Assembly: GCA_964486335.1 (NCBI GenBank)
Contig: CAZAMB010000001.1
Coordinates: forward strand, 231,979 to 295,978
DNA from: an uncultured Phycisphaera sp.
Lineage (GTDB): Bacteria; Planctomycetota; Phycisphaerae; UBA1845
DNA: 64,000 nucleotides
Direction: 5' to 3'
This document shows positions 24,512-33,002 of this stretch, in pieces. Within the stretch, counting starts at the first letter, position 1; every line of letters begins with the position of its first letter. The translations under genes were made by a program, and so were the position numbers. The notes under the pieces were generated by a model. It was not told the origin of the DNA, did not search any database, and saw nothing but the letters and a program-made list of their open reading frames with translations.

Positions 24512-25933
24512 ATGGCTGAACTACACAGAATCAGAATCGATTCGCTAAAACCGGGCCTGGCTTTACCGGCGGATCTTCTGAACGCCGACGAAACGATTGC
24601 GCTGGCCCGGGATACAGTATTGACCGAGTCGTATCTTTCGGCGCTGCTCTCCGGAGCCGCCTATTTTCTCGGCAATGACGACTGGCCCGTCGGATTTCGA
24701 GAACCCCAGGGAACCAATCTCAGTTCCAGCTCTTCCTCTGATATCCCGCCGCCGCTCGAAACGGATGCGTCGCCGGCGCGCACGATCAACGTGGAAACGC
24801 TCAACGTGGGCATGCGCCTTTCGATGGACATTTTTGATCCCGAAGGCGTGCTTCTTCTCTCGGCGGGTGCGCAGATCAACTCGCGTTTCATTTATTTATT
24901 GCGCAAGCGGGGGATCCGGTTCGTCCACCTTCGCGGACGCAATCCGGAGCCGCGGCCCGAAACGCAGGGCCAGGCGGAATCGGACCGTCCGCCGCCGCGC
25001 GGCCTTGGGCTCGACGACCTGTACAACGAGGCACGAAGCGGCATTGAGCAGCACGTCAAGGCCGGGGACGTCCTCCGCGAAATGAGCGGGACGGTGACGT
25101 CGGGCGGCACGGTTACCGTGGACAAGATGGACGCGCTGGTCAACGGATTCGTCGACCAGATCACCGTCGACCAGGACCTGTTGATGACCCTGATGAGTCT
25201 CAAACAGACCACCGGGGAATACCTTTTTGACCATTCCATCAATGTGGCGCTGATGAGTATGACCATCGGCTCTGAACTCGGGCTGCCCCGGCATCAGTTG
25301 CAGGAACTCGGCCTCGGCGCCGTCTTTCAGGACGTCGGCATGTTGCGCATCCCGGATACAATCCGCATGAAGCCCGGACCGCTTTCCGATCGTGAATGGG
25401 AGCTCATTCGCATGCACCCGGCGCACACGCTGAAATACCTCGAAGGGATGCGAAACATGCCCACCGCCGCCGCCCACGTTGCCTACCAGGCCCACGAGCG
25501 CGCCGACGGCAGCGGATACCCGCGCGGACGACACATTACCACTACGCATCCGTTCGCCAGGGTCGTGGGCGTCTCCGACACCTTTTGCGCGATGACCAGG
25601 CCTCGACCTCATCGACCGGCGTTTCTGCCGCATCGCGCAGTTCAGGAGATTCTGCACCAGGCACGGGCCAACAAGTTTGATCGGAACATCGTGCGCGTTC
25701 TCCTCGATCGCATCTCCGCGTTCCCCGTGGGGAGCATCGTCCAGCTTTCGGACGGCCGCGAAGTCCGCGTCGTGCGCGCCAAGCCCGGAAAGCACACGCT
25801 ACCCGTCGTCGCTGAAATTGACGAAGATGATAACCCCATTGGTGAGACCATCGACCTGTCCGCCCAGTCGGAACTGCGCATCGAGCGCGAACTACGTTTC
25901 ATCCACGGAAGTGCGGACGCTTCGGAGAATTAG
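24512..25933 (+). CDS. HD-GYP domain protein (putative c-di-GMP phosphodiesterase)
   Basis: HSINVALMSMTIG, G.VFQDVGM, HP..TLKYL and HERADGSGYPRG (the HD-GYP signature) are in the C-terminal half. The N-terminal 200 aa are unassigned. Confidence 0.85.
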   Translation: MAELHRIRIDSLKPGLALPADLLNADETIALARDTVLTESYLSALLSGAAYFLGNDDWPVGFREPQGTNLSSSSSSDIPPPLETDASPARTINVETLNVGMRLSMDIFDPEGVLLLSAGAQINSRFIYLLRKRGIRFVHLRGRNPEPRPETQGQAESDRPPPRGLGLDDLYNEARSGIEQHVKAGDVLREMSGTVTSGGTVTVDKMDALVNGFVDQITVDQDLLMTLMSLKQTTGEYLFDHSINVALMSMTIGSELGLPRHQLQELGLGAVFQDVGMLRIPDTIRMKPGPLSDREWELIRMHPAHTLKYLEGMRNMPTAAAHVAYQAHERADGSGYPRGRHITTTHPFARVVGVSDTFCAMTRPRPHRPAFLPHRAVQEILHQARANKFDRNIVRVLLDRISAFPVGSIVQLSDGREVRVVRAKPGKHTLPVVAEIDEDDNPIGETIDLSAQSELRIERELRFIHGSADASEN

Positions 25934-25948: not shown

Positions 25949-26578
25949 TTACGATGCGGCCTGAAGAGCAACCGACGCGGGTCGAACAGGCGACGGCGCG
26001 GCGCGACCCGTGTGGTGCGCTGCCACCGATGCCGGCGCGGACGCGATGGCACGTTGCCAATCCGCTCGCTCCGTGCGCGTGAGAAGTTCTTTCATCGTCG
26101 GTCGAAGGCGATCGGCCTTGCTGCGTGACTTTGCTACGTCCACGATCCGACCGCCGTCAAGCAACCCCGAATCCATCAATCGCGTCAGAATGCCGAACAT
26201 GACCTTGGCCATTTCGGGAGAAATGATGCCCAGGCGCACCTCGCGATAGAGTCGATCCATCGCGTTGCCGACAGCCGCGCGGTTGGTCAGTTTGCGAAGG
26301 TATCCGTCGGGAAGGTGTGACAATCGATTTCGGCGCTTGGCCCGCGCCACCGCGCTGCGCTGCTCGCGGCGCTCCACGAGCGTGGGATCGTGAAGGGGGC
26401 AGAACTCGGTCCCCTTGCGGATGCGACCTCGACACCGCTTGCCCGATTTCGTGATGACGCTGCAACGCGTGTCGTAGGGGAGCCGAACCGCCGTTGTAAT
26501 GGTCTGCTCGCCGGTTCCTGTTCCGGAAAGCTCGCGGCGAACGGGCTTGGTCAACATTTCCCACAGCAGCATGGCCAT
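25949..26578 (-). CDS. hypothetical basic protein with Cys/His knuckle
   Basis: ATG 26578 is preceded by an AAGGAG site. The sequence is MAMLLWEML..RCSVITKSGKRCRGRIRKGTEFCPLHD... No family recalled. Confidence 0.5.
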   Translation of the reverse strand: MAMLLWEMLTKPVRRELSGTGTGEQTITTAVRLPYDTRCSVITKSGKRCRGRIRKGTEFCPLHDPTLVERREQRSAVARAKRRNRLSHLPDGYLRKLTNRAAVGNAMDRLYREVRLGIISPEMAKVMFGILTRLMDSGLLDGGRIVDVAKSRSKADRLRPTMKELLTRTERADWQRAIASAPASVAAHHTGRAAPSPVRPASVALQAAS

Positions 26579-26968
26579 TCTCCTTTGTGCCGAAGTCGGC
26601 ACGCCCGCGGAGATTTCTGGGGCGAGGCGACCAGGCAGGCAGCCCCGCCGCCGACGCCATCCATGCCGTCGGAAGGTTGAGTCGATTGTTCGGTGCCGGG
26701 TGGCGATCCCTCCGTTCATGCAGCAAGCTACATTTGGCTCTGCATGAACTCACGTCGGCACCGACGCGCTTGTGAATTGTACGCCGATTACGGTTGGCCA
26801 CAACCAACCCGAAAAACAAAAGCACGATCGGCGCTGTCGGTGATCTTCCCACACCACATTTCGGGAGATCAGACCTGATGTTATTGAGGGTAGTAGTAGC
26901 CCGGAGCCGCTGTCTCAAAGGTTCGCGTGGCTTTTGGTCGAATAGGCGTATAATTGCTTGCTGCGAAA

Positions 26969-27559
26969 ATGGATAAGGAAAACGTGCTCGCCGGGGCCGC
27001 TATGACCGAATTGCTGCTGACCGGGACCAGATTCTCGGTGGAACGCCGACGCGTGAGGTTGCCGGATGGGACCGCGCTGACCCGTGAAGTGGTCGTCCAT
27101 CCCGGGGCGGTGGTCATTCTCCCCGTCCTCGACGCGAAACGAATCGTCATGATCCGCAACCTGCGGCATTCCGTCGGCGAGGAACTGCTTGAGCTGCCTG
27201 CGGGCACACTTGAGCCCGGTGAACGGGTGGAACACACGGCCGCACGAGAGTTGATCGAGGAAACCGGCTACCGTGCGAGGTCGATCGAACCATTGGGTTG
27301 CTTCTACACATCGCCGGGAGTGATGACCGAGTTGATGCACGCCTATGTGGCGTTTGACCTGGAGTGCGTGGGGCAGTCCCTGGAACCCGGGGAGTGCATC
27401 TCCACCGAGATTGTCGAGGTCGTACGCGTGCGCGACATGCTGGCCAATTCCGAACTGCGCGACGGAAAAACGATCGCCGCGCTCGGATTGTACATCGCGA
27501 AAATCGGACGCCGTGCAGGCGCGCAAGCGAACGCGCATCCGGAGAGAGGTGATCGATGA
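26969..27559 (+). CDS. NUDIX hydrolase (ADP-ribose pyrophosphatase-like)
   Basis: The Nudix box is GTLEPGERVEHTAARELIEETGY. The stop overlaps the next start in an ATGA junction at 27556. Confidence 0.85.
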   Translation: MDKENVLAGAAMTELLLTGTRFSVERRRVRLPDGTALTREVVVHPGAVVILPVLDAKRIVMIRNLRHSVGEELLELPAGTLEPGERVEHTAARELIEETGYRARSIEPLGCFYTSPGVMTELMHAYVAFDLECVGQSLEPGECISTEIVEVVRVRDMLANSELRDGKTIAALGLYIAKIGRRAGAQANAHPERGDR

Positions 27560-28464
27560 GTTGGCGTGATCGAGAATATGCGCGCGGGGCGGAGCGCGTG
27601 CGGCCGATTCCGTTCGGGCGCGGCGGCACGCTTCTCGGCGGGCGCAGCATCGTTACCACGCTGATTTGGGTCAACATCATCGTTTATGTCGTGTGCGTCA
27701 TGACCAGCGGGCCGGGAGGCGGGTTGCAGAGTCCCGTCTTTAACTTGCTGGCTCTTTATACACCCGCGGTCCAAGGAGCCCAGGTCTGGCGACTCATCAC
27801 CGCGCAATACCTTCATTGGGATGCCGGTCACATCCTGATGAACATGATCGGACTGCACTTTCTCGGCAGGCCGCTCGAACGTGAGTGGGGCACGCGGCGG
27901 TTCTTCGGTGTTTATACGATTGCGGGATTGATGGGCAATCTGTTTTATGTCGCGCTGACGCTCATCGGCTGGCTTCCAATCAACGGTGTCGCGGCGGGCG
28001 CGTCGGGCTGCGTGTTGGGTTTGCTCGGCGCCGCGGCCGTCCGATATCCACATGCCGAGGTTTGGATTTACTTTTTGTTCCCCATCAAAATCCGCACCGC
28101 TGCCCTCGCCTTTGGCGGCCTATACGCCTTGAACCTCTACTCACGCGGAAACAACGCCGGAGGCGATGCCTGCCACCTGGCGGGGATGCTTTTCGGGGCC
28201 TGGTGGGCGTGGCGCGGCGAGGGCTGGTGGTTTTCTCGGAATCGTTCGATGCCCCGATTCCGTGTGCGAACAGCCCCTCCGGCGGATTCGACCTTCACCG
28301 AACGAGTGGAACAACGGCGGTCCGATGCCGAAACCGTCGATCGCATCCTGAAAAAGGTCTACGAAACCGGCATTCACAGCCTGACCGAATCCGAAAAAGC
28401 CGCCCTACGCGAGGCCACCGAGCGGCAACGCTCCGTGGAATCGACCCGCCCCGATCGGCTATGA
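27556..28464 (+). CDS. rhomboid family intramembrane serine protease
   Basis: ITAQYLHWDAGHILMNMIGLHFLG, GASGCVLG (Ser context) and CHLAGMLFG (His context). The C-terminal cytoplasmic tail motif is VDRILKKVYETGIHSLTESEKAALREAT. Confidence 0.85.
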   Translation: MSWRDREYARGAERVRPIPFGRGGTLLGGRSIVTTLIWVNIIVYVVCVMTSGPGGGLQSPVFNLLALYTPAVQGAQVWRLITAQYLHWDAGHILMNMIGLHFLGRPLEREWGTRRFFGVYTIAGLMGNLFYVALTLIGWLPINGVAAGASGCVLGLLGAAAVRYPHAEVWIYFLFPIKIRTAALAFGGLYALNLYSRGNNAGGDACHLAGMLFGAWWAWRGEGWWFSRNRSMPRFRVRTAPPADSTFTERVEQRRSDAETVDRILKKVYETGIHSLTESEKAALREATERQRSVESTRPDRL

Positions 28465-28531
28465 TGCTCAGGACGCCGACGGACTGCTCCGCCTGGCGTC
28501 GCCCCTATTCGGACGGAAGGAAGCGCATCCC

Positions 28532-29614
28532 ATGAACCCGGTCGAGAGGCCGCTGGACAATCCGATCAACTGGTCCTTCAGGCTCGGCCGCATGCGCGGA
28601 ATCGACATTCGCGTGCACATCGCGTTCGTGTTGTGTGCCGTCGTGCTTTTCTGGATGGAACTTCCTCCAAAGGAATTGGCCCGAGACATGTCGTTGATAG
28701 ACGTCTTCGGCGGGGCGCTGGGGACCTACGCGCTGTTGTTCCTCGTCGTGTTGCTTCACGAGTTCGGCCACTGCTGGGGGGCGCGGCGCACAGGCGGCGA
28801 GGCCGACGAAATCCTGCTATGGCCGCTGGGCGGACTCGCCAACGTGAACCCTCCGCACGATCCCCGATCGAACCTGATCACCACGCTCGCGGGTCCGTCG
28901 GTCAACGTGATTCTCTGCGCGGTGTGTTCGGCGGTTCTCACGGTCTGGGTCGGCACGCTTGGCGCGGTGCCGTGGAATCCGCTGCATCCGATGTCGCCGG
29001 TAGACGCGCTCGTCATCCCGACGGCCTCGCAGGAATGGGTGATCCGATTGTTCGGTGTGAGCTACTTCCTGCTGCTCATCAACCTGCTGCCGATTTTTCC
29101 CTTCGACGGCGGGCGGGTTTTGCAGGCCGTGTTGTGGTCGCGAAAGGGGTATTTCGCGGCCACGGAGATCGCGACCGGCGTGGGCATGATCGGGGCAATC
29201 GGCGTGGGGCTGTTTGCACTGTTCACCGATCAAAGCTGGCTTTTGATCATGATCGCGGCCTTTGGATACTTGACCTGCTGGCAGACGAGGCGGATCAACA
29301 AGGAGCAGGGTGAATTCGGCGCGGGCGAGTTTGGATATGATTTTTCGCGCGGATTCACATCGCTGGAACGGACCGATACACGACCTCGGCGTCCGGGGCT
29401 GATCGCGCGACGCCGCGCAGCCAAAGCGCTGCGCCGCGCGGAACAGGAGCGCGCCGCGCAAGAGCGACATCAGCAGGCCGTGGATGATATTCTCCGCAAG
29501 GTGGCGCGATCGGGTCTGGCGTCGCTTTCACCAAACGAGCGAGAAGTGCTCGAAGCGGAAACCCGCCGCGTGCGGAGCTGCTCGTCGGATTCGCGCGATT
29601 CGGCGGAGTTATGA
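28532..29614 (+). CDS. site-2 protease family (M50) zinc metalloprotease
   Basis: The HExxH motif is in LLHEFGHCWG, with ILLWPLGGLA and NLLPIFPFDGGRV (second metal-ligand motif). The C-terminal tail motif is VDDILRKVARSGLASLSPNEREVLEAET. Confidence 0.85.
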   Translation: MNPVERPLDNPINWSFRLGRMRGIDIRVHIAFVLCAVVLFWMELPPKELARDMSLIDVFGGALGTYALLFLVVLLHEFGHCWGARRTGGEADEILLWPLGGLANVNPPHDPRSNLITTLAGPSVNVILCAVCSAVLTVWVGTLGAVPWNPLHPMSPVDALVIPTASQEWVIRLFGVSYFLLLINLLPIFPFDGGRVLQAVLWSRKGYFAATEIATGVGMIGAIGVGLFALFTDQSWLLIMIAAFGYLTCWQTRRINKEQGEFGAGEFGYDFSRGFTSLERTDTRPRRPGLIARRRAAKALRRAEQERAAQERHQQAVDDILRKVARSGLASLSPNEREVLEAETRRVRSCSSDSRDSAEL

Positions 29615-29633: not shown

Positions 29634-31007
29634 TCAGGGGTTCGACGGCGTCGTCTCGCCCGCCGCGACGACATGCCCTTTGGTTCGGAAATAAATCGTG
29701 CCGTCCGAAATGGCCGGCGTCGCCATGCAGATTTCGCTCAGAGGGTTCTTGGCCAGTGGCTCATAGACGTCGCCGGTCTTGACCACGTAAACGTCACCTT
29801 CCTCGCTGGTGAAATAGACTTTCCCATCGGCGGCGACGGGTGATGCGGTGAATCCCACGCCTTCGGCCAGTCGCTCGCGGTACTTCTTCTTGCCCGTCAT
29901 TGCGTCGTAGCAGGCCATGATGCCGGAATCGCGGCAACAGTAGAGATTGTCACCGTAGACCAGCGGCGTTTGCATATAGTTGCCGATGCGCATGTCGGCC
30001 CAGGCGATGTGCGAATTGCTGGTTTCCTCGCCGGAGAGCGAGATATCTCCGGTCGCGTCGGTCTTGATCGCATAAACCGGGGCGGCCGGTCCGTGGGCGT
30101 TGGTGATGAAGATCAAGCCGTGGGCGACAATCGGCGTGGGCACAGGAATGTCTCCGCCGCCTTTCATTTTCCATAGTTCCTTGCCGGTGGCGAGATCGTA
30201 TCCGCCGATGTGCTTCCAGCCGTTGGCGATGACCTGCGATCGACCGCCGGACGTATGCACGGTCGGCGAACTCCACGTCGGCACTTCGTCGCGCGCCGTC
30301 CGCCACAGTTCCTTGCCGTCCGTCACATCCAGCGCCGCGATGAACGAATCTTTCTGCACGTCGCACTGCACGATGACCTTGCCGTCGTGGATGATCGGCG
30401 AGCTGCCGAACTCCCACTGGGCAAGCGGAACGGCGTAATAGCCGGCGTCGAGCACGCCGAATTCCTTCTTCCAGAGCAGATCGCCGTCCATGTTGTAGCA
30501 GTAGAGTCCTTCTGATCCGAAAAACGCGACGACGTGCTTGCCGTCGGTGGCGGGCGTGCAGTTGGCATGTGTGGCCTTGGTGTGCCGCTTGACCGCGGGC
30601 TTGCCCTTGTGGGCTTCCTTTTCCCAGAGAATCTTTCCGGTGTTTTTGTCGAGACAGTAGAGCCGCCAGCTTTTTTCGGTGTCGTCGTTGACCGGGGCGA
30701 TATCGCCGTAAAGTCCGACCTTGAGCGAGTCTTCGCGTTCGCTGACCGCTGTCGTGACGAAGAGCTTGTCGCCCGAGACGATCGGCGAGGAGTGGCCCAG
30801 TCCCGGGATCGGCGTTTTCCAGCGAATGTTTTCGCCGGTTTCGACGTTCCACTTTGTCGGCGTGGGCTTGCCCTCGGCCACGCCGCTCGCCGACGGCCCA
30901 CGAAACTGCGGCCAGTTCGTTGATCCCGGTTCGGCAGCGTGGCTCCGCGTTGCGAGCAGGGCGAGGAACATGGCTGCCGAAGTGTTCAGATGGCTGTTTC
31001 GCAACAT
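29634..31007 (-). CDS. secreted PQQ-like/BamB-like beta-propeller repeat protein
   Basis: ATG 31007 gives the signal peptide [29 protein letters not shown]-rich propeller repeats follow ([49 protein letters not shown]). Confidence 0.85.
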
Positions 31008-31145
31008 CGTTTGACCCTTCCGTGAACATTCAATTGTCGGATTTCGCTCGCCCGGTTTCGGTGGTGACCGCATTTTGACCCGGATTCGTCGTGTCGGCCA
31101 GATCGGAGATGTCAATAGTTGCAATGCGATCGAGCACCGAACAAA

Positions 31146-31473: not shown

Positions 31474-32835
31474 CTAGTTTTTCGGGTTGCCGACCGCGAT
31501 GACATGGCCCTTGGTTCGGAAGTAGAGCGTGCCGTCCGAGATCGCCGGTGTGGCCATGCAGATTTCGCCAAGCGGGTTTTTCGCCATGAGCGTATAGTCG
31601 TCCCCCGCCATGACGACGTACACATCGCCTTCCTCGCTCGTGAAGTAGACCTTGCCGTCGGCGGCAACGGGCGAAGCCGTGAAGCCAACCCCGTCGGCCA
31701 GCCGTTCGCGATATTTTTTCTTGCCGGTGGCGGCGTCGTAACAGGCCATGATGCCCGAATCTCGGCAGCAATAGAGGTTGCCGCCATAGACCAGCGGCGT
31801 CTGCATGTAATTGCCGATGCGGAGGTTGGCCCAGGCGATGTGCGAGTTACTCGTTTCGTCCTCGCCCAGCGAGATGTCGCCTATTGCACTCGTCTTGATC
31901 GCGTAGACCGGGGATTGTCCGCCGTGGGCGTTGGTGATGTAAATGAGACCATCCGCGACGACCGGCGTGGGCACGGGAATGTCGCCGCCGCCCTTCATCC
32001 ACCAGAGTTCCTTGCCTGTCGCCAGATCGTATCCGCCGATGCGCTTGTATCCGTTGACGATCACCTGCGCCCGTTCGTTGCCGACATGGACCGTCGGCGT
32101 AGCCCAGCACGGATCGGGCTCGCGCGGCGTCTTCCAGACCTCCTTGCCGTCGGTGACATTCAACGCCGCGAGGTACGCTTCGTTGCGGACCGACACGAAC
32201 AGGATAACTTTGCCGTCGTGAATGATGGGTGAGCTGGCGAAACCCCAGGTGATATCGTCCGCGCCGGGTGGGCCGGAGTCGAGGAGGGAAAAGTCCTTCT
32301 TCCAAACCAAATCGCCATCCATGTTGTAGCAGTACAGGCCCTCCGATCCGAAAAACGCGACGACGTGCTTGCCGTCCGTCGCGGGAGTGCAGTTGGCGTG
32401 GGTAGCCTTGATGTGCCGCATGACCTTCGGCACGCCGCGATAGGCCGTCTTCTCCCATAGCGTCTTGCCGGTGTTCTTGTCGAGGCAGAGCAGCCGGAAG
32501 TCGTGCTCGACGTTTTCCTCGTGCTTGGGGCTTTCGCCGTAGAGTCCGACCTTGAGATACGGGTCGGGGTCGCTGCTGACCGCCGAGGTGACGAACAACT
32601 TGTCGCCCCAAACGATCGGCGAGGAGTGGGCCAAACCCGGGATCGCGGTTTTCCAGCGGATGTTCTCGCCGGTTTCAACGTTCCACTTCGTCGGCGTGGC
32701 GATACCGTCAGCCACCCCGTTCGCCCCCGTCCCGCGAAACTGCGGCCAATCTCTTGGCGGTGCAGCCGTTGCCGTCCCATGTTGAAATCCGGCCGTCAGA
32801 ATGACGAACGATGCAATCCACCCAGCGGTGCTCAT
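31474..32835 (-). CDS. secreted PQQ-like/BamB-like beta-propeller repeat protein (paralog of 29634..31007)
   Basis: ATG 32835 is preceded by a GGAGGAG site, with signal MSTAGWIASFVILTAGFQHGTATAAPP. Long blocks are identical to the neighbouring paralog ([56 protein letters not shown]). Confidence 0.85.
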   Translation of the reverse strand: MSTAGWIASFVILTAGFQHGTATAAPPRDWPQFRGTGANGVADGIATPTKWNVETGENIRWKTAIPGLAHSSPIVWGDKLFVTSAVSSDPDPYLKVGLYGESPKHEENVEHDFRLLCLDKNTGKTLWEKTAYRGVPKVMRHIKATHANCTPATDGKHVVAFFGSEGLYCYNMDGDLVWKKDFSLLDSGPPGADDITWGFASSPIIHDGKVILFVSVRNEAYLAALNVTDGKEVWKTPREPDPCWATPTVHVGNERAQVIVNGYKRIGGYDLATGKELWWMKGGGDIPVPTPVVADGLIYITNAHGGQSPVYAIKTSAIGDISLGEDETSNSHIAWANLRIGNYMQTPLVYGGNLYCCRDSGIMACYDAATGKKKYRERLADGVGFTASPVAADGKVYFTSEEGDVYVVMAGDDYTLMAKNPLGEICMATPAISDGTLYFRTKGHVIAVGNPKN

Positions 32836-33002
32836 GGTCGTATACTCCTCCAATGGGATGTTATTCGGTTCAACGGAAAAGAATATTCGTTATCGTCGTT
32901 GCGTACAAATGGCGCGCGACGGTGAGTAATGGTCAACTTTGAACCGAGCCGCGCGCATTCGGTATGGGCGCCTCGTCCGGCCGCGGCTTCTCAGCAGAAT
33001 TG

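What the first reader, a model, noticed from the sequence alone, without database searches (positions are those of the whole stretch)
26969..29614. NUDIX-rhomboid-site-2-protease cluster in which both intramembrane proteases share the same C-terminal tail motif
Gene arrangement: three same-strand genes are tightly packed. The NUDIX stop and rhomboid start overlap as ATGA at 27556. The S2P gene starts 67 nt after the rhomboid stop.

Shared tail: the rhomboid is a serine protease and the M50 protein is a metalloprotease, and they are evolutionarily unrelated. Their predicted cytoplasmic C-termini nevertheless align without gaps.
- Rhomboid (nt 28324-28464): AETVDRILKKVYETGIHSLTESEKAALREATERQRS
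- S2P (nt 29468-29614): QQAVDDILRKVARSGLASLSPNEREVLEAETRRVRS
- Shared pattern: VD.IL.KV...G..SL...E...L...T.R.RS, with 15 of 36 positions identical by eye.

Interpretation: a shared appended module on two different intramembrane proteases in one cluster suggests a common regulator, a docking partner or hetero-assembly. Translational coupling to a nucleotide-sugar/ADP-ribose-type hydrolase is also unusual. I cannot name the tail domain from memory.
Basis: seen in the sequence. Interest (0 to 1): 0.65.

Follow-up and report, generated by a model that had tools for sequence, protein, structure and literature searches.

The report
Two membrane proteases share one tail
In a Phycisphaerae (Planctomycetota) genome, a rhomboid serine protease and a site-2 metalloprotease sit side by side behind a NUDIX hydrolase gene and carry the same two-helix cytoplasmic tail of about 35 residues (Pfam DUF6576); the arrangement is real and widely conserved but uncharacterised, and it suggests the two unrelated proteases are docked or regulated together.

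Summary
NUDIX (26969-27559), rhomboid (27556-28464) and M50/S2P (28532-29614) lie on one strand, with an ATGA overlap and a 67-nt gap.

The two C-terminal tails are homologous, not a chance match:
- Both score above Pfam's cut-off for PF20216 (DUF6576).
- Profiles built from one family's tails find the other's (E about 1e-10).
- hhalign gives 98.7% probability.
- Nothing else in the 64-kb window matches.

AlphaFold2 predicts a confident helix-turn-helix hairpin after the last transmembrane helix. No solved structure and no paper matches it.

The cluster is a conserved unit. In rhomboid-centred loci the S2P follows in 53/68, NUDIX precedes in 66/76, and every complete S2P has the tail (48/48). 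Other window neighbours are conserved in 0-1 of 81 loci. Other lineages show NUDIX-S2P-rhomboid or NUDIX-S2P.

A second shared element emerged: an N-terminal MGWQDRDY motif on whichever protease follows NUDIX.

Function is inferred, not shown. The tail is most likely a cytoplasmic docking or oligomerisation handle, sitting where related S2Ps carry CBS domains.

The domain is already catalogued as a DUF. The link between the three genes appears undescribed. Interest is moderate.

The parts
26969..27559 (+). NUDIX hydrolase gene (196 aa), ADP-ribose pyrophosphatase (NudF) type. The Nudix box GTLEPGERVEHTAARELIEETGY is at residues 79-101.
   Evidence: Pfam PF00293, 59 bits. The closest solved relatives are NudF/ADPRases 5c7q, 8wv3 and 1mk1, E 1e-25 to 1e-20. 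The Nudix box regex matches. A homologue sits directly upstream in 66/76 related loci.
27556..27559 (+). ATGA overlap between the NUDIX stop codon and the rhomboid start codon (translational coupling).
   Evidence: Read directly from the sequence. In related loci the gap is negative in 17/67 and 20 nt or less in 47/67. A purine-rich stretch lies 7-15 nt upstream of the start.
27556..28464 (+). Rhomboid intramembrane serine protease gene (302 aa) with a six-TM GlpG-like core. It carries GASG (Ser150), His207, H92xxxN96 and W78-R79.
   Evidence: Pfam PF01694, 84 bits. Motifs were located. The AF2 model has pLDDT 89. Foldseek against E. coli and H. influenzae GlpG gives probability 1.00, TM-score normalised to the target about 0.75.
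27556..27582 (+). N-terminal peptide motif MSWRDREYA (family consensus M-[GS]-W-[QR]-D-R-[DE]-Y-A), predicted to be cytoplasmic.
   Evidence: The motif is nearly invariant in alignments A2 and A3. Amino acids stay fixed while synonymous codons vary across 76 distinct loci. The same motif heads S2Ps of other lineages when the S2P directly follows NUDIX.
28309..28434 (+). Rhomboid C-terminal DUF6576 tail (residues 252-293), a two-helix hairpin.
   Evidence: Pfam PF20216 scores 29.2 bits against a cut-off of 27.3. AF2 predicts helices 247-271 and 278-297 with pLDDT 90-95. The tail-only model has pLDDT 85.5. The tail is present in 78/80 orthologues.
28465..28531 (+). 67-nt rhomboid-S2P spacer.
   Evidence: Read directly from the sequence. 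No terminator-like or promoter-like site falls inside it. The median spacer in related loci is 95 nt.
28532..29614 (+). Site-2 protease (peptidase M50) gene (360 aa). HEFGH is at residues 76-80 and NLLPIFPFDG at 184-193. It has no PDZ and no CBS domain.
   Evidence: Pfam PF02163, 73 bits. Motifs were located. The closest solved structures are MJ0392 (3b4r, E 1e-21) and SpoIVFB (8vjl).
29456..29578 (+). S2P C-terminal DUF6576 tail (residues 309-349), preceded by a basic linker of about 70 residues.
   Evidence: Pfam PF20216 scores 28.0 bits against a cut-off of 27.3. The rhomboid-tail HMM hits it at 35 bits. The tail is present on 48/48 complete S2P orthologues next to rhomboids and on 51/54 S2Ps in the S2P-centred scan.

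Best explanation
SHOWN. The three genes form one co-oriented, tightly spaced cluster in a Phycisphaerae genome. It encodes an ADP-ribose-pyrophosphatase-type NUDIX enzyme, a catalytically intact GlpG-like rhomboid, and a catalytically intact MJ0392/SpoIVFB-type site-2 protease. Both proteases end in the same homologous module of about 35 residues, Pfam DUF6576, which is predicted to fold as a helix-turn-helix hairpin. Most of its invariant or near-invariant residues are what such a hairpin needs: core leucines, a glycine at the end of helix 1, and an S/T-x-x-E capping box at the start of helix 2. The module, the pairing of the two proteases and the NUDIX gene in front of them are conserved across the class, and they recur in rearranged orders elsewhere.

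INFERRED. By homology with GlpG and SpoIVFB topology, both tails lie in the cytoplasm on flexible, basic linkers. I take DUF6576 to be a portable protein-protein docking handle. It plugs two mechanistically unrelated intramembrane proteases into the same cytoplasmic assembly, so they are made together, sit together and are controlled together. The likely purpose is turnover or processing of membrane proteins. The most likely concrete form is hairpin-to-hairpin bundling into a four-helix bundle, giving homo- and hetero-oligomers. The co-translated NUDIX enzyme would be a third component, possibly engaged through the N-terminal MGWQDRDY motif of whichever protease is encoded directly after it. 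In the S2P, the linker plus hairpin occupies the position of the interdomain linker plus CBS domain of SpoIVFB, the part that engages the cytosolic side of that enzyme's substrate.

The confidence given (0.45) is for the inferred docking-handle mechanism. The shown part (homologous DUF6576 tails in a conserved NUDIX-rhomboid-S2P cluster) I hold at above 0.95.
For: Homology of the tails:
- Both score above the Pfam gathering threshold.
- Cross-family HMMs give E = 5e-10 and 3e-11.
- hhalign gives 98.7% probability; the shuffle test gives z = 7.1.

Specificity:
- No other ORF in the window matches.
- In 1.84 billion representative proteins, 4,896 match and the match is always C-terminal. Of the top 148, 42 are rhomboids, 38 are S2Ps and the rest are mostly gene fragments.

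Fold: two helices, pLDDT 85 for the tail alone and 90-95 in the full-length model.

Constraint: tail columns L265, K267, G272, L276 and L284 are invariant, like the catalytic residues.

Conserved unit:
- S2P follows the rhomboid in 53/68 loci; NUDIX precedes in 66/76; all three are present in 44/62.
- Other window neighbours are conserved in 0-1 of 81 loci.
- The cluster survives rearrangement as NUDIX-S2P-rhomboid (L087, L127, L157) and as NUDIX-S2P (L089-L091, L130 and others).

Pairing hint: one rhomboid (P0249) carries two tandem DUF6576 copies, as expected for a unit that normally pairs.

NUDIX link:
- The N-terminal motif tracks the gene position directly after NUDIX (8/13 versus 1/18, Fisher p = 0.0012).
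- That motif is under protein-level selection.

Analogy: SpoIVFB uses its post-TM6 linker, positioned by the CBS domain, to bind substrate (PMC11486902, read).
Against: - No interaction was tested.
- The model coordinates are not exposed, so hairpin-hairpin or N-motif-tail contacts could not be inspected.
- The two tails of one genome are no more similar than tails from different genomes (0.419 versus 0.416, permutation p = 0.28). There is therefore no sign of co-evolution or gene conversion.
- Tailed S2Ps stand alone in 10/26 well-flanked loci. Tailed rhomboids lack a downstream S2P in 15/68 loci, and L086 has neither partner. The tail must therefore work without an adjacent partner gene.
- Foldseek found no significant structural relative (best E = 2.8), so the fold gives no functional lead.
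- Conserved gene order within one bacterial class could partly reflect shared ancestry.
Confidence: 0.45

Rival explanations
1. The same module does the same job independently in each protease. DUF6576 would be a self-contained cytoplasmic element acting within its own protein, for example as a stabilising cap, a membrane-surface or ribosome/translocon-contacting basic tail, or an autoregulatory plug. Under this view the rhomboid and the S2P have no physical or functional link, and adjacency is inherited synteny.
For: - Tailed S2Ps occur alone in 10/26 loci, and tailed rhomboids occur without an S2P in 15/68 loci and in L086.
- There is no intragenomic co-variation of the two tails.
- The flanks are very basic: 22-24 K+R residues lie after the last hydrophobic segment.
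- The conserved residues are largely those needed just to fold a hairpin.
Against: - The rhomboid-S2P-NUDIX cluster is kept while every other neighbour is scrambled (0-1 of 81).
- The cluster persists with the gene order swapped.
- Two unrelated protease families acquired and kept both the same C-terminal domain and the same N-terminal motif, which is hard to explain without a common external target.
Confidence: 0.3
2. A nucleotide-linked switch. DUF6576, as a dimer or together with the linker, would replace the CBS domain of SpoIVFB-type S2Ps as a sensor of an adenine-nucleotide or ADP-ribose-type ligand. The co-encoded NUDIX hydrolase would set the level of that ligand and so gate both proteases.
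For: - An ADPRase-type NUDIX gene lies immediately upstream of the first tailed protease in several lineages and in different gene orders.
- The S2P belongs to the MJ0392/SpoIVFB group, in which a CBS domain normally occupies this position (PMC11486902).
Against: - A 35-residue two-helix hairpin has no obvious ligand pocket.
- No similarity to any nucleotide-binding fold was found.
- The role of CBS and ATP in SpoIVFB is itself unsettled.
- Ten of 26 tailed S2Ps have no NUDIX gene nearby.
Confidence: 0.1
3. A two-step cleavage cascade. The rhomboid would make the first (site-1-like) cut and the S2P the second cut in the same substrate, and the shared tails would co-localise the two enzymes.
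For: - The two genes are co-oriented and closely spaced, with no terminator-like site in the spacer.
- The rhomboid-S2P pair is conserved.
- This S2P lacks the PDZ filter that couples RseP-type enzymes to a dedicated site-1 protease.
Against: - From established knowledge of the families, rhomboids typically cut N-out/C-in helices near the outer leaflet, whereas S2Ps typically release the cytoplasmic N-terminal part of N-in/C-out substrates. A shared substrate is therefore not the default.
- No candidate substrate gene is conserved in the neighbourhood.
- Many lineages keep only one of the two proteases next to NUDIX.
Confidence: 0.08
4. The resemblance is a chance match between two charged, helical, low-information tails.
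For: BLASTP on the two tails alone gives only E = 0.001, with a gapped alignment.
Against: - The shuffle test gives z = 7.1, with 0 of 100,000 shuffles reaching the observed score.
- It is the best of 68,792 window 36-mers.
- Both tails score above the Pfam cut-off.
- Cross-family HMMs give E about 1e-10, and hhalign gives E = 3.5e-16.
- The tail is conserved in hundreds of orthologues of both families.
Confidence: 0.01

Closest known systems
Pfam PF20216, DUF6576 (family of unknown function)
   Same: Both window tails match it above the gathering threshold (29.2 and 28.0 bits against 27.3). Public annotations already list it on rhomboids and on M50 peptidases, and NCBI uses the name 'DUF6576 domain-containing protein'.
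   Different: Pfam gives no function, and no paper in the searched library mentions the family. This work adds four things: the hairpin model, the strictly C-terminal position on two protease families, the link to NUDIX, and the accompanying N-terminal motif.
SpoIVFB / M. jannaschii MJ0392 group of site-2 proteases (M50 with C-terminal CBS domain)
   Same: These are the closest solved relatives of the S2P core (3b4r at E = 1e-21; 8vjl). The window protein shares the HExxH and NxxPxxxxDG motifs and has no PDZ domain. A cytoplasmic linker plus an extra domain follows the last TM helix.
   Different: The group is defined by C-terminal CBS domain(s) (PMC11486902). Here no CBS domain is detected, and the position is taken by a basic linker of about 70 residues plus DUF6576.
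GlpG-type bacterial rhomboids (E. coli and H. influenzae GlpG) and B. subtilis YqgP/GluP
   Same: The window rhomboid has a six-TM core with the Ser-His dyad, the WR motif and HxxxN, and its predicted fold matches GlpG. Extramembrane cytoplasmic domains that tune or couple the protease are a known theme. Bacterial rhomboids acting in membrane-protein quality control are described in PMC7232013 (listed, not read). From my own knowledge, YqgP acts as an FtsH adaptor.
   Different: The known bacterial cytoplasmic domains are N-terminal and unrelated in sequence. A C-terminal hairpin shared with an S2P has not been described. NCBIfam equivalog cut-offs for GlpG and rhombosortase are not reached.
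Eukaryotic RHBDL4 (rhomboid with a C-terminal cytosolic tail that recruits p97/VCP)
   Same: The concept is the same: a short cytosolic C-terminal tail on a rhomboid serves as a docking site for cytoplasmic machinery. This is my own knowledge; RHBDL4 papers were listed but not read.
   Different: There is no sequence relationship. The partner here is unknown, and the bacterial tail is shared with a metalloprotease.
ADP-ribose pyrophosphatase (NudF/ADPRase) subfamily of NUDIX hydrolases
   Same: The best solved matches are NudF/ADPRases (5c7q, 8wv3, 1mk1). The Nudix box is intact, and a proline lies 15 residues after the box. I recall that proline as an ADPRase signature from my own knowledge.
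   Different: Scores fall below the NCBIfam equivalog cut-offs for NudE, NudF and NudK, so the substrate is not assigned. As far as I could find, conserved translational coupling to an intramembrane protease has not been described for this subfamily.

Membership tests
Rhomboid intramembrane serine protease (Pfam PF01694, MEROPS S54) | Significant match to the family profile | tested here: met
   PF01694 scores 84.4 bits against a cut-off of 22.6, covering residues 75-219.
Rhomboid intramembrane serine protease (Pfam PF01694, MEROPS S54) | Catalytic Ser in GxSG (TM4) and His (TM6), plus TM2 HxxxN and the L1 WR motif | tested here: met
   G148-A-S150-G151, H207 (CHLAG), H92-ILM-N96 and W78-R79 are present. 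All are invariant or nearly invariant in alignments A2 and A3.
Rhomboid intramembrane serine protease (Pfam PF01694, MEROPS S54) | Six-TM GlpG-like fold | tested here: met
   The AF2 model has pLDDT 89 with six long helices. Foldseek against GlpG structures gives probability 1.00 and TM-score normalised to the target of 0.75.
Rhomboid intramembrane serine protease (Pfam PF01694, MEROPS S54) | Proteolytic activity on a transmembrane substrate | not testable with these tools
   This requires a biochemical assay.
Rhombosortase / GlpG equivalogs (NCBIfam TIGR03902, TIGR04239) | Score above the curated equivalog cut-off | tested here: not met
   TIGR03902 scores 46 bits against a cut-off of 84. TIGR04239 scores 32 bits against 250.
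Site-2 protease, peptidase M50 (Pfam PF02163) | Significant match to the family profile | tested here: met
   PF02163 scores 72.9 bits against a cut-off of 27.2, covering residues 67-220. MJ0392 (3b4r) matches at E = 1e-21.
Site-2 protease, peptidase M50 (Pfam PF02163) | Zinc-binding HExxH and the NxxPxxxxDG motif with the third ligand Asp | tested here: met
   H76-E-F-G-H80 and N184-LLPIFPF-D192-G193 are present. H76, E77, H80, N184, P187, D192 and G193 are invariant or nearly invariant in alignment A6.
SpoIVFB/mjS2P subgroup of S2Ps | C-terminal CBS domain(s) | tested here: not met
   No CBS hit appears in Pfam at E up to 0.1. The C-terminal region is a linker plus DUF6576. The subgroup definition is taken from PMC11486902.
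RseP subgroup of S2Ps | Periplasmic PDZ domain(s); NCBIfam RseP equivalog | tested here: not met
   There is no PDZ hit. TIGR00054 scores 17.8 bits against a cut-off of 147.6.
DUF6576 (Pfam PF20216) | Score above the gathering threshold, in both proteins | tested here: met
   The rhomboid scores 29.2 bits and the S2P 28.0 bits against a cut-off of 27.3. The isolated tails score 33.8 and 32.2 bits.
DUF6576 (Pfam PF20216) | The two copies are homologous to each other, independently of the Pfam model | tested here: met
   Cross-family HMMs score 35 and 39 bits. hhalign gives 98.7% probability.
NUDIX hydrolase (Pfam PF00293) | Profile match and an intact Nudix box GX5EX7REUXEEXGU | tested here: met
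   PF00293 scores 59.2 bits. The box GTLEPGERVEHTAARELIEETGY is at residues 79-101.
ADP-ribose pyrophosphatase (NudF/NudE) equivalogs | Score above the curated equivalog cut-off, or demonstrated substrate | tested here: not met
   NudE scores 74 bits against a cut-off of 169. YffH/AdpP scores 54.5 against 79.6. ADPRase PRK10729 scores 35.6 against 248. The best solved relatives are nonetheless NudF/ADPRases.
Operon (single transcription unit) NUDIX-rhomboid-S2P | Co-transcription | not testable with these tools
   The evidence is indirect only: same strand, a 4-nt overlap, a 67-nt gap, and no terminator-like site in the gap.

The most novel reading that the evidence does not exclude
Planctomycetota may possess a dedicated three-part membrane-proteolysis system. 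An ADP-ribose-type NUDIX hydrolase would be physically coupled to one or both of two unrelated intramembrane proteases (rhomboid and S2P) through a bipartite cytoplasmic adaptor that the proteases share: the N-terminal MGWQDRDY peptide plus the C-terminal DUF6576 hairpin. This would form a hetero-oligomeric complex, possibly nucleotide-gated. It would be the first case of a common docking module uniting serine and metallo intramembrane proteases.
Probability: 0.2. Interest if true: 0.75.

Novelty: new variant of a known kind. Interest (0 to 1): 0.5.

Why it matters
How intramembrane proteases are regulated, and how they find substrates, is a long-standing open problem. Bacterial rhomboids in particular mostly lack known partners. 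Here two mechanistically unrelated intramembrane proteases carry the same strongly conserved cytoplasmic hairpin, and in other lineages the same N-terminal motif. They are kept next to each other and to a NUDIX enzyme. This gives a concrete, testable handle:
- Find what binds DUF6576.
- Ask whether the two proteases co-assemble.
- Ask whether a nucleotide-metabolising enzyme feeds into intramembrane proteolysis.

The work also proposes a structure and a context for a Pfam DUF with several thousand member clusters. If the tail proves to be only an internal stabilising element, the finding reduces to a domain-architecture note.

Tried and rejected
- A profile search of PDB sequences returned only chance GCN4-adaptor matches (E of 0.065 or higher).
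- A Pfam scan of isolated tails at E up to 10 showed no second family worth considering.
- The test for co-evolution or gene conversion between the two tails of one genome was negative.
- Standalone DUF6576 mini-proteins: short ORFs of 34-88 aa dominate one search, but those on long contigs are frameshift-split S2P genes (L091, L092). They were rejected as a separate architecture.
- Zinc-ribbon+tail proteins: in L074 this architecture is created by a 300-nt direct repeat. P0340 sits on a 598-bp contig. I do not count it as a third architecture.
- The SocA/Panacea+tail (P0285) and Usp+tail (P0323) proteins look like chimeric gene calls.
- L062 appeared to have a tail-less rhomboid, but the region is a masked run of N, so it is uninformative. 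L067 is a genuine tail-less rhomboid, with neither NUDIX nor S2P nearby.
- Literature searches for DUF6576, for rhomboid with S2P in an operon, and for rhomboid with NUDIX found nothing relevant.
- A simple hydropathy scan was too crude to count TM helices. Topology therefore rests on the AF2 model and on homology.


Full report
**What is there**

The region holds three same-strand ORFs:
- a NUDIX hydrolase, ATG 26969 to 27559;
- a rhomboid, 27556-28464 (302 aa);
- a peptidase-M50 site-2 protease, 28532-29614 (360 aa).

The NUDIX stop and the rhomboid start overlap as ATGA. The rhomboid-S2P gap is 67 nt, and it contains no terminator-like or promoter-like site.

Pfam confirms all three identities. 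The catalytic motifs are intact: GASG/Ser150, His207, HxxxN and WR in the rhomboid; HEFGH and NLLPIFPFDG in the S2P; and a complete Nudix box.

Named close homologues are from Phycisphaerae/Phycisphaerales MAGs, so the window comes from a member of that class of Planctomycetota.

**The shared tail is real**

None of 100,000 shuffles reached it (z = 7.1). The S2P tail is the best non-self match to the rhomboid tail among all 68,792 36-mers of the six-frame translation.

Both tails score above Pfam's gathering threshold for PF20216, DUF6576. I also built independent profiles:
- An HMM made only from rhomboid tails finds the S2P tail (35 bits, E = 5e-10).
- An HMM made only from S2P tails finds the rhomboid tail (39 bits, E = 3e-11).
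- No other ORF in the window scores above noise.
- hhalign of the two tail alignments gives 98.7% probability.

The tails are therefore homologous. They are not generic charged helices.

**What the tail looks like**

AlphaFold2 predicts two helices joined by a tight turn. The tail-only model has pLDDT 85.5. In the full-length rhomboid model the helices are 247-271 and 278-297, with pLDDT 90-95, and they follow a six-TM core that superposes on GlpG.

The invariant and near-invariant positions (L, K, G, S, L, E, L, T, R) fit a hairpin: core leucines, a glycine ending helix 1, and an S/T-x-x-E capping box starting helix 2. K267, T288 and R290 remain as candidate surface residues. This reading of the residues is my inference.

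In an alignment retrieved by full-length similarity, five tail columns are invariant, as conserved as the catalytic residues.

I found no solved structure related by sequence or by fold (best Foldseek E = 2.8). No second Pfam family matches, and no paper mentions DUF6576.

**Who carries it**

A profile of 136 tails, searched against 1.84 billion representative proteins, found 4,896 clusters at E of 1e-3 or better. The match is always at the C-terminus. Of the 148 new sequences among the top hits, 42 are rhomboids, 38 are S2Ps, and the rest are mostly fragments of such genes.

Apparent standalone mini-proteins are frameshift-split S2P genes. A zinc-ribbon fusion in L074 is produced by a 300-nt direct repeat. 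One rhomboid from an AT-rich organism has two tandem copies.

**Neighbourhood**

In 82 non-duplicate rhomboid-centred loci from GTDB genomes:

| Feature | Count |
|---|---|
| Rhomboid has the tail | 78/80 |
| S2P follows the rhomboid | 53/68 |
| Complete S2P has the tail | 48/48 |
| NUDIX precedes the rhomboid | 66/76 |
| All three genes present | 44/62 |

The two tail exceptions are a masked stretch (L062) and one truly tail-less gene (L067).

The other genes flanking the cluster in the window (an HD_5 protein, an unannotated ORF, two PQQ propellers) recur in 0-1 of 81 loci. The trio is therefore a conserved unit in otherwise scrambled surroundings. NUDIX-to-rhomboid spacing is an overlap in 17/67 loci and 20 nt or less in 47/67.

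An S2P-centred scan of metagenomes found the tail on 51/54 S2Ps. Among 26 well-flanked loci the contexts were:

| Context | Loci |
|---|---|
| NUDIX-rhomboid-S2P | 7 |
| NUDIX-S2P-rhomboid | 2 |
| NUDIX-S2P | 6 |
| Rhomboid + S2P, no NUDIX | 1 |
| S2P alone | 10 |

L087 shows the swapped order, with an ATGA overlap between NUDIX and the S2P. NUDIX is thus the most persistent companion, and the rhomboid-S2P pairing is lineage-dependent.

**A second shared element**

The rhomboid begins with MSWRDREYA. The consensus M-[GS]-W-[QR]-D-R-[DE]-Y-A is nearly invariant. Its codons vary synonymously across 76 loci, so selection acts on the peptide.

The window S2P lacks the motif. S2Ps of other lineages start with it (MGWQDRDYN and similar), and they do so preferentially when they, not a rhomboid, lie directly after NUDIX (8/13 versus 1/18, p = 0.0012). 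Both protease families can therefore carry the same N-terminal and C-terminal cytoplasmic appendages.

**How it most likely works**

The following is shown: homology, conservation, the predicted hairpin, the conserved cluster, and intact active sites.

The rest is inferred. Both tails are cytoplasmic, by homology to GlpG and SpoIVFB topology. I think they act as a docking or oligomerisation handle that ties the proteases to a common assembly. The most plausible form is hairpin-hairpin bundling; the tandem double tail of P0249 is what a normally pairing unit would give. NUDIX would be a co-translated third component.

The S2P core is closest to MJ0392 and SpoIVFB. That group is defined by C-terminal CBS domains, and its post-TM6 linker binds the substrate's cytosolic part (PMC11486902). 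Here a basic linker plus DUF6576 replaces that arrangement.

Several observations count against an obligatory partnership:
- There is no intragenomic co-variation of the tails.
- Many carriers stand alone.
- No interaction test was possible.

The rivals are independent function in each protease (about 0.3), a NUDIX-controlled nucleotide switch (about 0.1), a rhomboid-then-S2P cascade (about 0.08), and chance resemblance (refuted).

**Novelty and verdict**

The domain and both architectures already exist in public annotation as a DUF, and the window genes are ordinary orthologues of large families. I found no description of four things: the shared module seen as a link between the two protease classes, its hairpin model, the conserved coupling to an ADPRase-type NUDIX gene, and the N-terminal motif.

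I rate it a new variant of known kinds, of moderate interest. It offers clear experiments but no demonstrated mechanism.

Noticed in passing
window 27556-27582; also L088 5001, P0314, P0353, P0290, P0297, P0348, P0377: The N-terminal peptide motif M-[GS]-W-[QR]-D-R-[DE]-Y-A is under protein-level selection. It is shared by rhomboids and by S2Ps of other lineages, and it is enriched on whichever protease lies directly after NUDIX (Fisher p = 0.0012).
   Followed up: partly
L003 8240-9637; L009, L012, L049, L050, L058, L063, L091, L093: A threonine-synthase-like PALP gene (465 aa, with an N-terminal Cys-rich segment) follows the S2P in nine loci, including distant lineages. It may be a remnant of an older, larger conserved cluster. 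It is absent from the window.
   Followed up: partly
L074 7812-8111 and 8258-8557: A 300-nt direct repeat (99-100% identical, 446 nt apart) duplicates the S2P 3' end and fuses it to a zinc-ribbon ORF. This is either an assembly artefact or a very recent duplication creating a zinc-ribbon+DUF6576 gene.
   Followed up: partly
L079 (JANQQE010000024.1, 558-kb contig): The record is titled Alphaproteobacteria but carries the complete Phycisphaerae-type NUDIX-rhomboid-S2P cluster with both tails. This is probably mis-binning or a wrong taxonomic label.
   Followed up: no
L091 3141-4177; L092 3222-4234: Long-read metagenome assemblies split tailed S2P genes by frameshifts. This has produced many short 'DUF6576-only' proteins in public protein sets.
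   Followed up: yes
window 29634-31124 and 31474-32853 (- strand): Two tandem paralogous PQQ/BamB-like beta-propeller genes lie convergent to the S2P. The first stop codon is only 20 nt from the S2P stop. Neither is conserved next to the cluster elsewhere.
   Followed up: no
window 24512-25933 (+) and 25949-26719 (-): An HD_5 (HD-GYP-like) protein and an unannotated 256-aa ORF lie upstream of the cluster. They are conserved in 1 and 0 of 81 related loci respectively, so they are not part of the unit.
   Followed up: partly
P0249 (L086 5001-5966): A rhomboid from an AT-rich, flagellated organism carries two tandem DUF6576 copies and no N-terminal motif. It has neither NUDIX nor an S2P nearby, which shows the domain occurs well outside the Phycisphaerae cluster context.
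   Followed up: partly
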